A program made the translations under genes and the position numbers. 64,000 nt of DNA, taken from assembly GCF_003790525.1 (NCBI RefSeq), contig NZ_CP033635.1. The stretch is one strand, 5' to 3'. Below are positions 1,599 through 57,377 of the stretch, in pieces; the first letter of the stretch is position 1, and every line of letters begins with the position of its first letter. The notes under the pieces were generated by a model that saw only the letters and a list, made by a program, of their open reading frames with translations, made no database searches and had not been told where the DNA came from. Source of the stretch: Escherichia coli. GTDB taxonomy: Bacteria > Pseudomonadota > Gammaproteobacteria > Enterobacterales > Enterobacteriaceae.

Positions 1599-2876
1599 AT
1601 GAATTCTGCAAGTACGCATAAAAATCCCGATTTCTGGATTTTCGGTCTGTTCTTCTTTCTCTACTTTTTCATCATGGCAACCTGTTTTCCGTTTTTGCCT
1701 GTATGGCTGTCCGATGTGGTCGGACTGAGTAAAACGGATACAGGTATAGTCTTTTCATGTCTTTCTCTGTTTGCCATCAGTTTCCAGCCATTGCTTGGGG
1801 TCATATCAGATCGCCTGGGACTGAAAAAAAACCTGATCTGGAGTATCAGCCTGTTACTTGTATTTTTCGCCCCCTTTTTTTTATATGAATTTGCGCCCCT
1901 GCTGCGCTTCAATATCTGGGCAGGCGCACTGACTGGCGGTGTCTTTATTGGTTTTGTGTTTTCTGCAGGTGCCGGAGCTATTGAAGCTTATATAGAGCGG
2001 GTCAGTCGCAGTCGTGGATTTGAATACGGTAAAGCGAGGATGTTCGGGTGTCTGGGCTGGGCGTTATGTGCGGCTATGGCTGGAATGCTTTTTAATGTCG
2101 ATCCTTCTCTGGTTTTCTGGATGGGGTCAGGAAGCGCATTATTGTTGCTTCTTCTGTTGTTTCTGGCGCGCCCCAGTACCAGCCAGACGGCAATGGTTAT
2201 GAATACACTGGGTGCCAATTCTTCCCTGATTTCGACCAGAATGGTCTTCAGCCTGTTTCGCATGCGTCAGATGTGGATGTTTGTTCTCTACACGATTGGT
2301 GTGGCCTGTGTCTATGATGTATTTGATCAGCAGTTTGCCACATTTTTTCGTTCATTCTTTGACACTCCTCAGGCAGGAATAAAAGCATTCGGATTTGCTA
2401 CCACTGCGGGGGAGATTTGTAATGCCATTATCATGTTCTGTACACCATGGATAATTCATCGCATTGGTGCCAAAAATACCCTGCTTGTTGCGGGGGGAAT
2501 TATGACCATCCGCATTACCGGTTCTGCTTTTGCCACCACCGCGACAGAAGTGGTGATTCTGAAAATGCTTCACGCTCTTGAAGTTCCATTTTTGCTGGTT
2601 GGGGCGTTCAAATATATTACGGCAGTGTTTGACACCCGACTGTCAGCGACCGTTTATTTAATAGGTTTTCAGTTTTCCAAACAACTTGCTGCAATACTTC
2701 TCTCTACCTTTGCCGGCCACCTGTATGATCGTATGGGATTCCAGAATACGTATTTTGTGCTCGGGATGATTGCTCTGACTGTTACCGTGATATCAGTTTT
2801 CACGCTGAGTTCTTCCCGCGGGAGCGTACACCCTTCTGTAGAAAAAGCCCCTGCAGCGCATTCGGAGATTAACTGA
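1599..2876 (+). CDS. rafB: raffinose permease, LacY-family MFS symporter
   Basis: N-terminus MNSASTHKNPDFWIFGLFFFLYFFIM is LacY-like; start taken at internal ATG 1599 of ORF 1533-2876; about 425 aa. Confidence 0.85.
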   Translation: MNSASTHKNPDFWIFGLFFFLYFFIMATCFPFLPVWLSDVVGLSKTDTGIVFSCLSLFAISFQPLLGVISDRLGLKKNLIWSISLLLVFFAPFFLYEFAPLLRFNIWAGALTGGVFIGFVFSAGAGAIEAYIERVSRSRGFEYGKARMFGCLGWALCAAMAGMLFNVDPSLVFWMGSGSALLLLLLLFLARPSTSQTAMVMNTLGANSSLISTRMVFSLFRMRQMWMFVLYTIGVACVYDVFDQQFATFFRSFFDTPQAGIKAFGFATTAGEICNAIIMFCTPWIIHRIGAKNTLLVAGGIMTIRITGSAFATTATEVVILKMLHALEVPFLLVGAFKYITAVFDTRLSATVYLIGFQFSKQLAAILLSTFAGHLYDRMGFQNTYFVLGMIALTVTVISVFTLSSSRGSVHPSVEKAPAAHSEIN

Positions 2877-4306
2877 TGAAACAGCGTCTTGCTTTGGCAC
2901 AGTCTGCCCTTGAAAAACTTTGCGCACGTCGTGGTAATGCCTGGTACCCGATTTTTCATCTGGCTCCACCTGCCGGCTGGATGAATGATCCAAATGGCCT
3001 TATTTACTTCAATGGGCGTTACCATGCGTTCTTCCAGCATCATCCTGCAAGCGCATATCAGGGGCCAATGCACTGGGGGCATGCCACCAGTACCGACATG
3101 TTGCACTGGCAACACGAACCTATCGCGCTGGCACCCGGAGATAAATATGATCGTGATGGCTGTTTTTCAGGGAGTGCCGTGGATGATGATGGCGTGCTAT
3201 CACTTATTTATACTGGTCATATTTGTCTCGATGATCGTGGTAATGACAGCATTATCCGTGAAGTACAGTGTCTGGCTACAAGTCATGATGGTATTCACTT
3301 TGAGAAGCAGGGCTGTGTGCTGACACCTCCGGAAGGTATAATGCATTTCCGTGATCCCAAAGTCTGGCACGAAGACGGCTCCTGGTGGATGGTCATTGGT
3401 GCCCGGGACGCTTCTGACAATGGGCAAGTTCTGTTGTATCGCGGGACATCTTTGCGGGACTGGCATCTGGAGCATGTTCTTGCTCATTCCGCAGCCGGAA
3501 AAAGTTATATGTGGGAATGCCCCGATTTCTTCAGGTGTGGTAATTTTCACTGGCTGATGTTCTCACCACAGGGGATGCCCCCTTCCGGTTATCGGTTCCG
3601 TAACCTTTTTCAGAGCGGTGTGTTGGCAGGGAGCTGGAAGCCTGGTTCTGTCTTTGCGCTGAAAGGGGGATTTGAAGAGCTGGATTATGGTCATGACTTT
3701 TATGCTCCACAGTCCATGCTGGCTGAGGACGGCAGGCGTATCATTATGGCATGGATGAATATGTGGGATTCACCCGTGCCCACCCGCAGTGAAGCCTGGG
3801 CAGGATGTCTGACGCTGCCCAGAGAGGTTTTTGAGCGCGATGGCCGGCTGTGCCAGCGACCTGTGCGTGAAGTCGAATCTCTGCGCAAAAAATGCCAGCC
3901 ATTATCCCCTGTAAGGTTACAGGGTTTGCAATTACTGACCGAAAATGTACAGGCCGCAGAATTATTGGTGACGTGGCATACGGTTGACAGTCATGCGGAG
4001 CACTATGGCGTCCGCCTTGGAGACGGTCTGCGACTTTATGTGGATAATCAGGCCGGGCGACTGGTACTGTGGCGCTATTACCCTGAGGAAGGGTTGGATG
4101 GTTACCGCAGTGTTGAACTTCCTGATACAGAATATCTGACTCTTCGTATTTTCTTGGATCGTTCATCTGTTGAAGTGTTTGTTAACGATGGTGAGGCAAC
4201 CTTATCAAGTCGTATTTATCCGCAAGCGGACTCGAGACAATTATCGTTATATGCCGCTCATGGCGATGCGATATTAACTGATGGCACTTTATGGATGCTG
4301 ACCTGA
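2876..4306 (+). CDS. rafD: raffinose invertase / sucrose-6-phosphate hydrolase-like (GH32)
   Basis: GH32 N-terminal WMNDPNGL motif; 476 aa; start overlaps rafB stop (TGATG). Confidence 0.85.
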   Translation: MKQRLALAQSALEKLCARRGNAWYPIFHLAPPAGWMNDPNGLIYFNGRYHAFFQHHPASAYQGPMHWGHATSTDMLHWQHEPIALAPGDKYDRDGCFSGSAVDDDGVLSLIYTGHICLDDRGNDSIIREVQCLATSHDGIHFEKQGCVLTPPEGIMHFRDPKVWHEDGSWWMVIGARDASDNGQVLLYRGTSLRDWHLEHVLAHSAAGKSYMWECPDFFRCGNFHWLMFSPQGMPPSGYRFRNLFQSGVLAGSWKPGSVFALKGGFEELDYGHDFYAPQSMLAEDGRRIIMAWMNMWDSPVPTRSEAWAGCLTLPREVFERDGRLCQRPVREVESLRKKCQPLSPVRLQGLQLLTENVQAAELLVTWHTVDSHAEHYGVRLGDGLRLYVDNQAGRLVLWRYYPEEGLDGYRSVELPDTEYLTLRIFLDRSSVEVFVNDGEATLSSRIYPQADSRQLSLYAAHGDAILTDGTLWMLT

Positions 4307-4500: not shown

Positions 4501-5895
4501 ATGAATAAGTTACTTTTGGGTTTATCTCTTTTTTTATTACTGGAATACAATGCGTGTGCAGCAAAAACAGGGGGGCTAACGCTTGAACAAAGAATGGCAT
4601 TGCTGGAAGAACGCCTGGAAGCTGCAGAAAAAAGGGCGGAAAAAGCAGAAAGAATGTTAAAGAGTTTTGATATAGAACAACATTCTGAAATACGTCAAAT
4701 TAGTTCAGAGCAGAATAAAAAAGATGCTAACAGCTATGCAGTAGTTGAGTCAACAAAAGAAAAAACATCTTCTCCAGGTTTTCTGCTCTCTGGTTACAAT
4801 GATTTGAAGTTTTATGGTGATGTGGAGTTTAATATAGATGCTGCCAGTAAACCCGGTCAGTTAGTAATGATAAGTTCCGGGGCGAACAGTGAGTCAGTGA
4901 ATGAACGGTGGGACCTTAATGGCCGTATTCTATTAGGTTTTGACGGTACCCGTAAGCTTGATAATGGTTATTTCGCTGGATTTTCAGCACAACCACTGGC
5001 GGATATGCACGGTTCAGTGAATATTGATGATGCATTATTCTTTTTTGGAAAAGATGACGAGTGGAAAGTGAAAGTCGGTCGTTTTGAAGCTTACGATATG
5101 TTCCCTCTAAATCAGGATACTTTCATTGAGTATTCCGGTAATACAGCTAATGATATTTATGCTGATGGCCGTGGTTATATCTATATGATGAAAGAGGGAC
5201 GCGGTCGTTCTGACGCTGGTGGTAATTTCCTCATCAGTAAACAACTCGATAACTGGTATTTTGAGTTAAACACGTTACTTGAAGACGGAACATCTTTATA
5301 TAATAACGGTAATTATCATGGACGATATATGGAGCAGCAGAAAAATGTCGCTTATCTGCGCCCGGTAATTGCCTGGTCGCCAACGGAAGAATTCACAGTC
5401 TCCGCAGCGATGGAAGCGAACGTGGTAAAAAATGCTTATGGCTATACCGATAATAAGGGGAATTTTGTCGATCAGTCCAATCGTTCCGGTTATGGTATTA
5501 GCATGACATGGAACGGTCTGAAAACAGATCCGGAAAATGGCATCGTGGTTACTCTTAATACCGCCTATTTGGATGCCAGTAATGAGAAAGATTTCACTGC
5601 CAGTATTAATGCTCTGTGGAAACGTTTCGAACTGGGTTATATCTACGCACATAATAAGATTGATGAATTTAGTGGTGTCGTGTGTAATAATGGTTGCTGG
5701 ATTGATGGTGAAGGAATATACAACATTCACACCATTCATGCATCTTATCAGTTTGCTAATGTGATGGATATGGAGAACTTTAATATTTACCTCGGGGCTT
5801 ATTACTCAATTCTGGATAGTAACTGTAGATATAGTAATTGTGACATTACCGATGATCGTTACGGTGCCCGATTACGTTTCAAATACTTTTTTTGA
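4501..5895 (+). CDS. rafY: outer-membrane carbohydrate porin (glycoporin, RafY/ScrY-like)
   Basis: Signal peptide, N-terminal coiled-coil (LEERLEAAEKRAEKAERM), aromatic-rich beta-barrel-like body ending in C-terminal Phe (RFKYFF); sits downstream of rafD. Confidence 0.6.
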   Translation: MNKLLLGLSLFLLLEYNACAAKTGGLTLEQRMALLEERLEAAEKRAEKAERMLKSFDIEQHSEIRQISSEQNKKDANSYAVVESTKEKTSSPGFLLSGYNDLKFYGDVEFNIDAASKPGQLVMISSGANSESVNERWDLNGRILLGFDGTRKLDNGYFAGFSAQPLADMHGSVNIDDALFFFGKDDEWKVKVGRFEAYDMFPLNQDTFIEYSGNTANDIYADGRGYIYMMKEGRGRSDAGGNFLISKQLDNWYFELNTLLEDGTSLYNNGNYHGRYMEQQKNVAYLRPVIAWSPTEEFTVSAAMEANVVKNAYGYTDNKGNFVDQSNRSGYGISMTWNGLKTDPENGIVVTLNTAYLDASNEKDFTASINALWKRFELGYIYAHNKIDEFSGVVCNNGCWIDGEGIYNIHTIHASYQFANVMDMENFNIYLGAYYSILDSNCRYSNCDITDDRYGARLRFKYFF

Positions 5896-6461
5896 TGCAT
5901 AGTAACAAAGTATTGTTCCACACTTACATTAACGCGTTTTTCGGGCGCGTCATCAGCGATGCATACGAATGATCGCAGTCTGCCAATGGTCGATTTATCT
6001 TGGTTGCGCAGGGGCGAGCACCGGGCAGGTACCGGCGGCTGACTCTGAAGCTCTGAGTCGGGTAATTGCGTCAGGTCACGAAGGACTGACACGGGTATTG
6101 GTGGCAGGTGATGAAGTACTGAGTGTGGTAATTTCGGGGATGCAATGCAGGAGCTGAGTCAGGTTTGCACTGAGCTGAGGACCCGTAGCGAGCGGGTTCC
6201 TGCTATTTTTCGGTGTCAGGGGCGCAAGTCCCGACGTCGGGACTTGCCGGGAGATTGTCAGGTCATTGACCGGGTGTGAGCGGCTCGACGTAAGCGGTAG
6301 ATATGCCCAATTCCCCCCGATAAATTCATTACCAAACACATTATTCAATTTGTTTTTATTTTTCCGCTTTCAGTCATTATCGCTATCGCTTCGTCGGTAA
6401 TGACTCCAACTTATTGATAGTGTTTTATGTTCAGATAATGCCCGATGACTTTGTCATGCAG

Positions 6462-6753
6462 TGGATTTGCCCCTATATTTCCAGACACCTGTTATCACTT
6501 AACCCATTACTGGCCCGCTGCCGTAGATATTCCCGTGGCGAGCGATAACCCAGTGCACTATGCGGATGCCATTCGTTATAATGCTCGAACGCCTCTGCAA
6601 GGTTCTTTGCTGCCGTTAACCCGTCTGGTTTGGGCATGATACTGATGTAATCACGCTTTATCGTTTTCACGAAGCTCTCTGCTATGCCGTTACTCTCCGG
6701 ACTCCGCACCGCCGTGTTCTTCGGTTCAAGTCCCAACATCCGGGCGAACTGGC
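6462..6753 (-). mobile_element. IS2 right-end fragment (about 290 bp) embedded in IS1
   Basis: Starts exactly with IS2 terminus tggatttgcccctatatttccagaca at 6462; inner junction at CTGGCG microhomology near 6748-6753. Confidence 0.7.
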
Positions 6754-6916
6754 GCGATTTAGCCCCGACATAGCCCCACTGTTCGTCCATTTCCGCGCAG
6801 ACGATGACGTCACTGCCCGGCTGTATGCGCGAGGTTACCGACTGCGGCCTGAGTTTTTTAAGTGACGTAAAATCGTGTTGAGGCCAACGCCCATAATGCG
6901 GGCTGTTGCCCGGCAT
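6473..6916 (-). pseudogene. chimeric ORF: IS1 InsB N-terminus (to ...[12 protein letters not shown]) fused to IS2 OrfB C-terminus
   Basis: Translation switches from InsB-like to IS2 OrfB-like (...[15 protein letters not shown]...[17 protein letters not shown]) at about 6750; DDE catalytic region of neither transposase is complete. Confidence 0.7.
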
Positions 6917-7110
6917 CCAACGCCATTCATGGCCATATCAATGATTTTCTGGTGCGTACCGAGTTGAGAAGCGGTGTAAGTGAACTGCAGTTGCCATGTT
7001 TTACGGCAGTGAGAGCAGAGATAGCGCTGATGTCCGGCGGTGCTTTTGCCGTTACGCACCACCCCGTCAGTAGCTGAACAGGAGGGACAGCTGATAGAAA
7101 CAGAAGCCAC
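6835..7110 (-). CDS. insA: IS1 InsA
   Basis: 91-aa product [43 protein letters not shown]... matches IS1 InsA as recalled. Confidence 0.85.
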
Positions 7111-7174
7111 TGGAGCACCTCAAAAACACCATCATACACTAAATCAGTAAGTTGGCAGCATCACCCGCTTTGAA

Positions 7175-56567: not shown

Positions 56568-57377
56568 ATGAAACAATATGAAGATGGTTATAACGTGAAT
56601 GGATATAGCTGGGAAAATGAAACAATTGAGTATTTGTTGAATGATAAACAACTGACAGATAATCACATACCTGAATGGGTTAAAAAAAATGAAATTGCAG
56701 CATTCTGGTTCTGGTTAGTTATAATTAACACAGATCCCAAACTCCTTGGGGTTCGTAATGAATTAGGGTTCAATACAGCCATGATGGGGCTGATTCCTGC
56801 GGGGAGTATACCCATAACAACAATTCCTTCAGATCATGAAATGAGACTGGATGTTATAAGCAAATGGATTAATGCATTAATCCTTGACAATCAATCAGAT
56901 TGCTTCATCTCAACAATGCATCAAAACTGGCTGCAGATCGAAAAGAGAAACGAAGCCAAATGGCTTAAAAAGAATACAGAACAACTCGAATGGGCATGGA
57001 AATATATCAATGCACGCATCCCGCACACGTATCTTTCCTGGTTTTATCCTGTAAGTGATAACGAAAGATACATTGCTATCGTAGTTTTACTAAAAATTTT
57101 ATTCCCCGCAGATACACCATACTTACAGCAGCCAAAAGTACTTCACTATGGGGTTGCCGCAAAAGAAAAATTTTTCGACAAGATGCACAATGCATTCCGA
57201 AAACAGTTTACCGACGGAAAAAAAGATAAGCGGGTACAAATCAACGTTAAAATATCATCAGATGCAAAACGTACTCTGGACAGACTGACCAGAGAACTGA
57301 AAACAACACAACAGGCTGTCCTGGAACATCTGATTCAGAACCACAGGCTGGTGATTCAGAACCACAGACTGTATTAA
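56568..57377 (+). CDS. hypothetical protein
   Basis: Start at ATG 56568 with GAGG upstream; about 269 aa; C-terminus encoded by an 18-bp tandem duplication (IQNHRLVIQNHRL); no family recognised. Confidence 0.4.
   Translation: MKQYEDGYNVNGYSWENETIEYLLNDKQLTDNHIPEWVKKNEIAAFWFWLVIINTDPKLLGVRNELGFNTAMMGLIPAGSIPITTIPSDHEMRLDVISKWINALILDNQSDCFISTMHQNWLQIEKRNEAKWLKKNTEQLEWAWKYINARIPHTYLSWFYPVSDNERYIAIVVLLKILFPADTPYLQQPKVLHYGVAAKEKFFDKMHNAFRKQFTDGKKDKRVQINVKISSDAKRTLDRLTRELKTTQQAVLEHLIQNHRLVIQNHRLY

What the first reader, a model, noticed from the sequence alone, without database searches (positions are those of the whole stretch)
6224..6247. Perfect 24-bp palindrome in unassigned DNA between the porin gene and IS1
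gcaagtcccgac gtcgggacttgc is a perfect palindrome centred on GACGTC, lying in a 500-bp segment (5900-6395) with no convincing ORF. It could be an operator, a recombination site or part of a structured element.
Basis: seen in the sequence. Interest (0 to 1): 0.2.

Follow-up and report, generated by a model that had tools for sequence, protein, structure and literature searches.

The report
Hairpin in a dead IS66 end
The perfect 24-bp palindrome is real, but it sits inside a leftover end-piece of an IS66-family jumping gene that has lost its transposase genes, so it is most likely a fossil rather than an operator or recombination site.

Summary
GCAAGTCCCGAC|GTCGGGACTTGC lies at 6224-6247 and is the longest palindrome in the window. 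Only 1 of 300 shuffles reaches arms of 12.

The surrounding "unassigned" DNA can be assigned. Window ~5910-6296 is the solo right end (the end next to tnpC) of an IS66-family insertion sequence.
- It starts with the IS terminal inverted repeat about 15 nt after the stop codon of the rafY-like porin gene.
- It ends about 16-26 nt short of where the tnpC stop codon would be.
- Beyond it lies the 3' end of a BRO-N gene, which is cut by IS1 at 6397.

In intact relatives (2,697 bp, tnpA-tnpB-tnpC) a near-identical palindrome lies 60 nt downstream of the tnpC stop, about 220 nt from the IS tip.

Sister lineages vary. ISEc49-like elements carry a different 17-bp inverted repeat at the same place. An apparently intact Cedecea tnpABC copy (its left end was not checked) has none.

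Evidence for selection on the palindrome is weak. There are two compensatory pair changes, but they are not significant (39 of 500 shuffles reach the score). No strand preference is seen and there is no U-tract.

Best reading: a relic of a post-tnpC stem-loop, probably an mRNA 3'-end or transcription-insulating hairpin in the live element, with no dedicated role here. There is no Rfam match, no conserved ORF, and no support for an operator or recombination site. Interest is low.

The parts
6224..6247 (.). Perfect 24-bp palindrome GCAAGTCCCGAC|GTCGGGACTTGC. It corresponds to the stem-loop that follows tnpC in intact IS66-family relatives.
   Evidence: Homologous palindrome alleles in L006, L007 and L010 are shown.
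5910..6296 (-). Solo right-end relic of an IS66-family insertion sequence. The IS sense strand (tnpC sense) is the minus strand, and all tnp genes are missing. The tip position is uncertain by about +/-8 nt. The inner boundary lies at 6286-6296.
   Evidence: It is 76-89% identical to the region between the tnpC stop and the terminal inverted repeat of intact or partial IS66-family elements. The intact reference is L006 3852-6548, with 27-nt inverted repeats and Pfam DDE_Tnp_IS66 and TnpB_IS66 domains.
5910..5933 (+). Degenerate terminal inverted repeat of the IS (GTATTGTTCCACACTTACATTAAC), about 15 nt after the porin stop codon at 5893-5895.
   Evidence: It aligns with GTAATATTCCGGCGAACTCATATTGAC (L002), GTAAACTTCCAGCGAGCTCATATTGAC (L017) and GTGACGTTCCGGGCATCTCATCTTGAC (L006). 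Sequence to the left of this point differs completely between contexts.
6043..6174 (+). Three good units and one degenerate unit of a ~33-bp direct repeat, with core TGAAGTACTGAG at 6046, 6079 and 6112. This is a subterminal feature of this IS subgroup.
   Evidence: Motif scan (33-nt spacing in both the window and L006). Copy L013 lacks exactly one 33-bp unit. Tandem Repeats Finder and the repeat finder do not report the array because the units are too divergent.
6191..6210 (+). Terminator-like hairpin AGCGGGTTCCTGCT followed by ATTTTT. It faces inward, antisense to tnpC, and ends 13 nt before the palindrome.
   Evidence: Searches find it at the equivalent position in L006. It is also visible in the sequences of L010, L032 and L060. 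One pair varies G-C to G-U on the + strand.
6345..6396 (-). The last 52 nt (C-terminal 16 codons plus the stop codon) of a BRO-N family gene, truncated by IS1.
   Evidence: In strain GF153, which lacks the IS1, the full 263-aa gene continues here. Pfam Bro-N match.
6397..7165 (-). IS1 copy that bounds the region. Its interior (~6463-6750) is replaced by an IS3-family integrase-core fragment.
   Evidence: Sequence read, the chimeric ORF 6473-6916, and the SMS-3-5 annotation.
4501..5895 (+). Carbohydrate porin gene (rafY-type), the last gene of a raffinose-type sugar-utilisation cluster and the left neighbour of the relic.

Best explanation
The palindrome is a molecular fossil. The stretch ~5910-6296 is the non-coding right end of an IS66-family insertion sequence of an ISEc49-related subgroup. 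That subgroup carries an unusual 300-380 bp of non-coding DNA between the tnpC stop codon and the terminal inverted repeat. The element once sat just downstream of the porin gene. Its tnpA, tnpB and tnpC genes have since been lost, and a BRO-N gene now abuts the remnant.

In live relatives the same palindrome is the first strong stem-loop after the transposase gene. My inference, which is not shown, is that it acts there as a hairpin in the 3' untranslated tail of the tnpABC transcript. In that role it would protect or define the mRNA 3' end. Together with the neighbouring inward-facing terminator-like hairpin, it would insulate the transposase genes and the IS end from transcription crossing the element.

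In this window, with no transposase gene left, it has no dedicated function. At most it is a passive hairpin between the convergent porin and BRO genes.

Shown: the identity of the DNA as an IS66-family end, and the position of the palindrome in intact copies. Inferred: the RNA-level role.
For: Identity of the DNA:
- Homology to IS66-family right ends appears in about 1,000 E. coli records.
- The window aligns with intact elements from the terminal inverted repeat to within ~25 nt of the tnpC stop.
- The reference element L006 3852-6548 has 27-nt terminal inverted repeats, is annotated tnpA-tnpB-tnpC, and carries DDE_Tnp_IS66 (E = 1e-92) and TnpB_IS66 domains.
- Four different left flanks join the shared sequence exactly at the inverted repeat.

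Position of the palindrome:
- In L006 the homologous palindrome is at 4071-4094, 60 nt beyond the tnpC stop at 4155-4157.

A hairpin as a recurring feature:
- The type A allele GTAAGTCCTGAC|GTCAGGAGTTAC differs from the window allele by two C-G to T-A double changes that keep pairing.
- ISEc49-type ends carry a different 17-bp inverted repeat with a 32-nt spacer, starting 7 nt after the tnpC stop. Overall, 91.6% of its cells are paired across 7 distinct alleles.
- The hairpin is stable (-19.6 kcal/mol, z = -3.7).
- The adjacent + strand terminator-like hairpin recurs in end types A, C and D.

Relic status:
- No tnpC homologue adjoins any of the window-type copies. All copies whose contig reaches that far are followed by the BRO gene.
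Against: - Covariation is not significant. For the palindrome, 39 of 500 shuffles reach the observed score, and both double changes sit in one lineage. For the type B stem, 358 of 500 shuffles reach it.
- No strand preference is seen. One-sided changes give G-U on the tnpC-sense strand about as often as on the antisense strand, as expected for neutral decay of a DNA inverted repeat.
- The Salmonella copy (L010) has two non-Watson-Crick positions. The CFS3292 and Enterobacter relics have lost the palindrome. An apparently intact Cedecea tnpABC element lacks it. It therefore appears not to be essential to this IS subgroup.
- No U-tract follows the palindrome on either strand, so it is not a canonical intrinsic terminator.
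- The perfect conservation among window-type copies reflects recent common ancestry. The whole inner 240 bp is ~99% identical between them.
Confidence: 0.6

Rival explanations
1. The palindrome never had a function. It is a by-product of mutation: a quasi-palindrome made perfect by template switching during replication, drifting inside non-coding IS DNA.
For: Covariation is not significant. Departures from pairing are symmetric between strands. An apparently intact relative lacks the palindrome. Allele L010 is a half-changed intermediate. Templated correction of quasi-palindromes is an established mutational mechanism in E. coli (own knowledge). It produces concerted changes in both arms without any selection.
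Against: Three diverged end types (A, B, C) each have a strong inverted repeat in the same short interval after tnpC, although the sequence and register differ. An arm of 12 is rare by chance.
Confidence: 0.27
2. The palindrome is a double-stranded DNA binding site (operator-like) for a dimeric protein. Candidates are an IS-encoded protein (TnpA, TnpB or TnpC) or a host factor that regulates transposition.
For: It has perfect dyad symmetry with no spacer. It lies in the subterminal region, next to the 33-bp direct repeats, which could be protein-binding iterons.
Against: It is present at one IS end only, with no copy near the left end of L006. The half-site sequence is not conserved between types A, B and D, whereas the transposases are 70-85% identical. 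It is absent from an apparently intact element. It lies downstream of tnpC, not at the tnpA promoter.
Confidence: 0.08
3. The relic hairpin has been co-opted here as a bidirectional transcript-end or RNA-stabilising element between the convergent porin (+) and BRO (-) genes.
For: It lies between two convergent genes: 328 nt after the porin stop and 97 nt after the BRO stop. The relic-plus-BRO arrangement is kept in at least four genomic contexts. REP-type hairpins are known to stabilise upstream mRNA (own knowledge).
Against: There is no U-tract on either side. On the + strand, a terminator-like hairpin with T5 ends 13 nt before the palindrome, so porin read-through would mostly stop before reaching it. 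In this window the BRO gene is destroyed by IS1. Conservation is explained by recent ancestry.
Confidence: 0.04
4. The palindrome is a site-specific recombination or cleavage site, such as a Xer/dif-like site, a res-like site or a hairpin recognised by an HUH transposase.
For: Only its dyad symmetry and its location in a mobile-element-rich island.
Against: It lies 314 nt inside the IS tip. No junctions or breakpoints coincide with it in any of about 40 related loci. IS66 elements use a DDE transposase acting on terminal inverted repeats. No recombinase gene is associated with it.
Confidence: 0.01

Closest known systems
IS66-family insertion sequences, ISEc49-related subgroup (right end, downstream of tnpC)
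   Same: The terminal inverted repeat, 76-89% nucleotide identity over the whole non-coding end, and the same order of features: inverted repeat, 33-bp repeats, inward-facing terminator-like hairpin, then the palindrome. Intact relatives encode tnpA-tnpB-tnpC with DDE_Tnp_IS66 domains.
   Different: The window copy has no transposase genes and only one end. Its palindrome is perfect, whereas intact type A copies have 1-2 mismatches. The named ISEc49 has a different inverted repeat at this position. Typical IS66 members differ in layout: IS682 in L004 has its tnpC stop only 30 bp from the tip, and the element in L012 about 55 nt from the tip, so they have no such extension.
REP/BIME extragenic palindromes of E. 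coli
   Same: A GC-rich hairpin-forming sequence in non-coding DNA between convergent genes. A plausible role is mRNA 3'-end protection.
   Different: There is no similarity to the REP consensus (own knowledge of that consensus). It occurs once in the window and a median of once per genome. It travels as part of an IS relic, not as a dispersed repeat family.
Rho-independent (intrinsic) terminators
   Same: A stable GC-rich stem-loop downstream of a gene.
   Different: No U-tract follows it on either strand. The scan reports only the neighbouring small hairpin at 6179-6204 on the + strand.
Subterminal hairpins of IS200/IS605 and IS91-type elements
   Same: A hairpin inside the end of an insertion sequence.
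   Different: Those hairpins lie within a few tens of nt of the tips, at both ends, and are recognised by HUH transposases. Here the hairpin is 220-314 nt from the tip, at one end only, in an element with a DDE transposase.

Membership tests
IS66 family (as a relic of one) | Terminal inverted repeats of ~20-30 bp beginning GTAA/GTGA | tested here: met
   Window 5910-5933 aligns with the right inverted repeats of L002, L017, L015 and L006. L006 has paired 27-nt inverted repeats, 81% complementary and 2,643 nt apart. The window inverted repeat is degenerate, with a 3-nt deletion.
IS66 family (as a relic of one) | tnpA-tnpB-tnpC genes, with TnpC carrying the DDE_Tnp_IS66 domain | tested here: not met
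   This feature is absent from the window next to the relic, and tblastn finds no TnpC homology adjacent to any window-type copy. It is met in the intact relatives that define the homology: L006 has DDE_Tnp_IS66 at E = 1e-92, plus zf-IS66, LZ_Tnp_IS66 and TnpB_IS66. The window feature is therefore a fragment, not an element.
IS66 family (as a relic of one) | 8-bp target-site duplication flanking the element | tested here: inconclusive
   This cannot be tested for a one-ended relic. The five intact type A copies available have unrelated flanks on their two sides because they sit in rearranged IS clusters.
IS66 family (as a relic of one) | Nucleotide homology of the non-coding end, contiguous with tnpC in other genomes | tested here: met
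   In L006, L007, L008, L010, L058, L059, L061 and L062 the homologous end is contiguous with an annotated or translated tnpC.
Intrinsic terminator | GC-rich stem-loop followed directly by a U-rich tract | tested here: not met
   No T-run lies within 2 nt of the palindrome on either strand.
REP/BIME or another dispersed extragenic repeat | Many dispersed copies per genome sharing a consensus | tested here: not met
   There is one copy in the window with up to 3 mismatches allowed. Per E. coli genome that has the region, the median is 1 place and the highest is 2.
Any curated RNA family (Rfam 15) | Covariance-model match at or near the gathering score | tested here: not met
   Only chance-level hits (E > 2) were found in window 5700-6700. 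Nothing was found in the IS ends of L006, L002 or L010.
Structured RNA (new) | Significant covariation supporting the helix | tested here: not met
   Two pairs have changes on both sides, but 39 of 500 shuffles reach the observed score. The RNAalifold consensus over the whole end is weak, at -23 kcal/mol over 411 columns.

The most novel reading that the evidence does not exclude
The 300-380 bp non-coding extension between tnpC and the right tip is peculiar to this ISEc49-related IS66 subgroup. It contains 33-bp iterons, a recurring inward-facing terminator and a post-tnpC inverted repeat. It could be a dedicated regulatory module. One possibility is a small RNA transcribed inward from the right end that stops at the terminator, with the palindrome as a second barrier or a processing or binding site that controls transposase expression or end recognition. 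The window would then preserve a dead copy of an undescribed IS control element.
Probability: 0.08. Interest if true: 0.4.

Novelty: already known. Interest (0 to 1): 0.1.

Why it matters
The result mainly matters for annotation. A ~390-bp stretch left blank in about 290 complete E. coli genomes (PGAP annotates nothing there, or a spurious small 'hypothetical protein') is the solo end of an IS66-family element abutting the raffinose-type porin gene. The same porin/IS-tip junction occurs on a raf plasmid, which marks an old shared insertion and helps trace how this sugar island moved. The palindrome itself is not a regulator of the neighbouring genes. A minor point for IS biology is that this IS66 subgroup has an unusually long, repeat- and hairpin-rich right end. 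I found no description of its function in the papers searched.

Tried and rejected
- Rfam at a permissive E-value on 5700-6700, and at gathering score on three related loci, found nothing relevant.
- Tandem Repeats Finder on 5850-6450 found nothing because the 33-bp units are too divergent.
- A blastn search of plasmids with the type A end gave only 9 partial hits.
- The viral contigs pattern CTGACACCGAAAANNNNNGGG was badly designed and gave only chance hits.
- The metagenome pattern anchored outside the arms found 19 loci but only the two known palindrome alleles, so it added little covariation power.
- RNAalifold over the whole right end (12 sequences, three types) gave a weak consensus that does not include the palindrome.
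- Coding hypothesis for the right end: a ~110-codon open frame exists in some type B copies. It is broken by stops or by indels that are not multiples of 3 in others, and there are no Pfam hits. Rejected.
- A second IS66 inverted repeat beyond the BRO gene, which would make BRO a passenger of an IS66-derived transposon, was not found.
- The phage collection has no match to the relic-plus-BRO module.
- Three literature searches found no description of a post-tnpC palindrome or of this right-end extension in IS66 elements.
- No conserved inward-facing promoter was evident at the IS tip on reading the sequences, and the scan predicted none in the relic.

Full report
OBSERVATION

The sequence at 6224-6247 is GCAAGTCCCGACGTCGGGACTTGC, a perfect 24-bp palindrome centred on GACGTC. 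Key statistics:
- It is unique in the window even with 3 mismatches allowed.
- It is the longest spacer-less palindrome in the 64 kb, with arms of 12 against 9 for the next.
- Only 1 of 300 first-order Markov shuffles of the window reaches arms of 12.
- As RNA it gives a 10-bp stem with a 4-nt loop at -19.6 kcal/mol, z = -3.7.

CONTEXT

Upstream lie an MFS transporter gene, a GH32 hydrolase gene (2876-4306) and a carbohydrate porin gene (4501-5895). This is a raffinose-type cluster in an integrase-bounded island. IS1 begins at 6397.

The segment 5896-6400 is present at ~100% identity in 289 of 5,426 complete E. coli genomes and is almost never annotated. In strain GF153, which lacks the IS1, a 263-aa BRO-N gene on the minus strand runs into this region. 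Its last 52 nt are window 6345-6396.

WHAT THE DNA IS

Weaker matches (76-89%) to parts of the segment occur in about 770 further E. coli records. There they always lie next to IS66-family tnpC genes or their remnants.

A complete reference copy is L006 3852-6548 (2,697 bp).
- It has 27-nt terminal inverted repeats.
- It is annotated tnpA-tnpB-tnpC.
- It carries Pfam DDE_Tnp_IS66 (E = 1e-92), zf-IS66, LZ_Tnp_IS66, DDE_Tnp_IS66_C and TnpB_IS66.

Its non-coding right end, from the tnpC stop (4155-4157) to the tip (3852), aligns with the window. The window homology has these limits:
- It begins at a degenerate terminal inverted repeat, GTATTGTTCCACACTTACATTAAC (5910-5933), about 15 nt after the porin stop.
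- It ends at 6286-6296, roughly 16-26 nt short of where the tnpC stop would be.

Sequence to the left of the inverted repeat differs entirely in other contigs that carry the same relic. Flanks seen are the porin gene, a 1,646-aa ORF, and two others. So the inverted repeat is a true element boundary. No TnpC homology adjoins any window-type copy. All copies whose contig reaches that far are followed by the BRO gene. The 'unassigned 500 bp' is therefore a solo right end of an IS66-family element (~387 bp), then about 48 nt of unknown origin, then the tail of the BRO gene.

ANATOMY OF THIS KIND OF IS END

Other IS66 members in hand have no such extension. IS682 in L004 (5065-7597) has its tnpC stop 30 bp from the tip. 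The element in L012 has it about 55 nt from the tip. The subgroup studied here has 215-380 bp between the stop and the tip. Reading from the tip inward, on the window + strand, the features are:
- the terminal inverted repeat;
- a small GACGCG...CGCGTC hairpin;
- three to four ~33-bp direct repeats with core TGAAGTACTGAG (window 6046, 6079, 6112), of which one copy, L013, lacks exactly one unit;
- a terminator-like hairpin plus T5 on the + strand (6191-6210);
- the palindrome, 13 nt later.

I distinguish four end types.
- Type A: L006, L007, L013 and the Salmonella plasmid copy L010.
- Type B: ISEc49 as named by PGAP in L058, plus L002, L004, L011, L035, L059 (Serratia) and others.
- Type C: the window, L017, L019, L021 and L015. 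It is known only as the relic joined to BRO.
- Type D: Cedecea L060, apparently intact (tnpA-like ORF, tnpB and tnpC annotated; left end not checked), and the Enterobacter relic L032.
The window end is a mosaic. Its tip-proximal 200 bp resemble type B (87-89%) and its inner part resembles type A (78-84%).

THE PALINDROME ACROSS RELATIVES

- In L006 the homologous site is GTAAGTCCTGAC|GTCAGGAGTTAC. It has one central mismatch, lies 60 nt after the tnpC stop and lies 219 nt from the tip.
- Relative to the window allele, two pairs have changed on both sides (C-G to T-A).
- L010 is a half-way allele with one G-U and one C-A.
- The CFS3292 and Enterobacter relics are degenerate.
- The formal count gives 2 pairs with double changes, 84% of cells paired in the helix, and 39 of 500 shuffles reaching the covariation score. 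This is not significant, and both double changes sit in one lineage.
- A metagenome scan anchored outside the arms recovered only these two alleles.
- Type B ends have no palindrome here. They have a 17-bp inverted repeat, CCTGCCGTCAGGTGTTC...32 nt...GAACGCCTGACGGCAGG, starting 7 nt after the stop. It shows 91.6% of cells paired, one double change and again no significant covariation.
- One-sided changes produce G-U on the tnpC-sense strand about as often as on the antisense strand, so no transcribed strand can be inferred.
- The left part of the type A/C site (GTCAGGnGnnCAAnTCCCGAC) is homologous to the left arm region of type B. The stem is formed in a different register.
- The type D element, with apparently intact tnpABC, has only a weak 5-bp alternative.
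- The perfect conservation among type C copies is uninformative, because the inner 240 bp are ~99% identical throughout.

HOW IT MOST LIKELY WORKS

Shown: the palindrome belongs to the 3' non-coding end of an IS66-family element, it is the first strong stem-loop after tnpC in live copies, and the window copy has lost the transposase genes.

Inferred: a strong inverted repeat recurs in this short interval in three diverged end types, with different sequence and register. It has no U-tract, no counterpart at the left end and no conserved half-site. From this I favour an RNA-level role for a hairpin as such. It would protect or define the 3' end of the tnpABC transcript. With the neighbouring inward-facing terminator-like hairpin, it would insulate the element from transcription crossing the end. 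That small hairpin shows G-C to G-U variation on the + strand, consistent with inward transcripts.

I put about 0.9 on the identity and about 0.35-0.4 on this role in the live element. In this window the most probable state is 'no dedicated function'.

Rivals:
- a neutral by-product, for example quasi-palindrome correction, which would also create double changes without selection (0.27);
- a protein-binding site (0.08);
- co-option as a transcript end between the convergent porin and BRO genes (0.04);
- a recombination site (0.01).

COMPARISON WITH KNOWN THINGS

- It is not REP/BIME. It is single-copy.
- It is not an intrinsic terminator. It has no U-tract.
- It matches no Rfam family.
- It is not coding.
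- It is unlike the tip-proximal hairpins of HUH-transposase elements.
- It files under 'IS66-family remnant'. The inverted-repeat and homology criteria are met. The transposase criterion is met only in relatives. The target-duplication criterion is untestable here and inconclusive in the intact copies available.
- Three full-text searches found no paper describing this post-tnpC palindrome or the long right end. I did not have access to ISfinder.

VERDICT

This is a real, statistically unusual palindrome with an ordinary explanation: a fossil of an insertion-sequence end. Interest is low (0.1). The only mildly novel thread is that this IS66 subgroup carries an uncharacterised, feature-rich right-end extension that might be regulatory (probability about 0.08).

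Noticed in passing
window 6043-6174; L006 3920-4010; L013: About 33-bp direct repeats (core TGAAGTACTGAG, three good units plus one degenerate unit) lie in the IS right end only. One metagenomic copy (L013) lacks exactly one 33-bp unit. They may be protein-binding iterons. Their function is unknown.
   Followed up: partly
window 6191-6210 (+ strand): A terminator-like hairpin plus T5 faces into the IS, antisense to tnpC. It recurs in end types A, C and D, with a G-C to G-U change on the + strand. It could stop outside transcription or end an inward small RNA. No conserved promoter was found for such an RNA.
   Followed up: partly
window 6397-7165: The IS1 copy is chimeric. Its ends are IS1, but ~6463-6750 is an IS3-family integrase-core fragment fused in frame to InsB (ORF 6473-6916). 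The total length (769 bp) is almost exactly that of IS1.
   Followed up: no
window 5880-5935; L057 3985-4040: The junction between the porin stop codon and the IS66 tip is identical in a plasmid-borne raf locus (pC-F-163_A), whereas the IS end beyond it is only ~74-84% identical and truncated. The IS insertion therefore predates the split between chromosomal and plasmid raf loci.
   Followed up: partly
L017 6532, L019, L021, L015 12845 versus window 5910: The relic-plus-BRO module is shared over at least 5 kb between L019 and L021. It is joined at the inverted-repeat tip to at least four different left flanks. Its first ~150 bp are mosaic between copies while the rest is ~99% identical. This suggests recombination with other IS66 copies or old IS-mediated rearrangements.
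   Followed up: partly
L058 2251-2316 (ISEc49), L002, L011, L059: ISEc49-type elements have a 17-bp inverted repeat with a 32-nt spacer starting 7 nt after the tnpC stop. The predicted stem-loop is very stable (folds of -45 to -56 kcal/mol for the first 130 nt).
   Followed up: partly
L010 3380-3705: The Salmonella diarizonae plasmid copy has a tandem duplication of the terminal ~154 bp of the IS right end. It therefore has two right tips in direct order.
   Followed up: no
window 5882-5914: An AT-rich inverted repeat, AATACTTTTTT / AACAAAGTATT, spans the porin stop codon and overlaps the presumed IS tip. This makes the exact tip position uncertain by about 8 nt.
   Followed up: no
window 56866-56883: This is the second-longest perfect palindrome in the window, GGATTAATGCATTAATCC (18 bp).
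   Followed up: no
L001 12201-12243 (E. coli SMS-3-5; not present in the window): A 21-nt perfect inverted repeat with a 1-nt spacer (TCGCACGCTGTCAGTCAGATA / TATCTGACTGACAGCGTGCGA) lies just upstream of another IS66-family tnpA.
   Followed up: no
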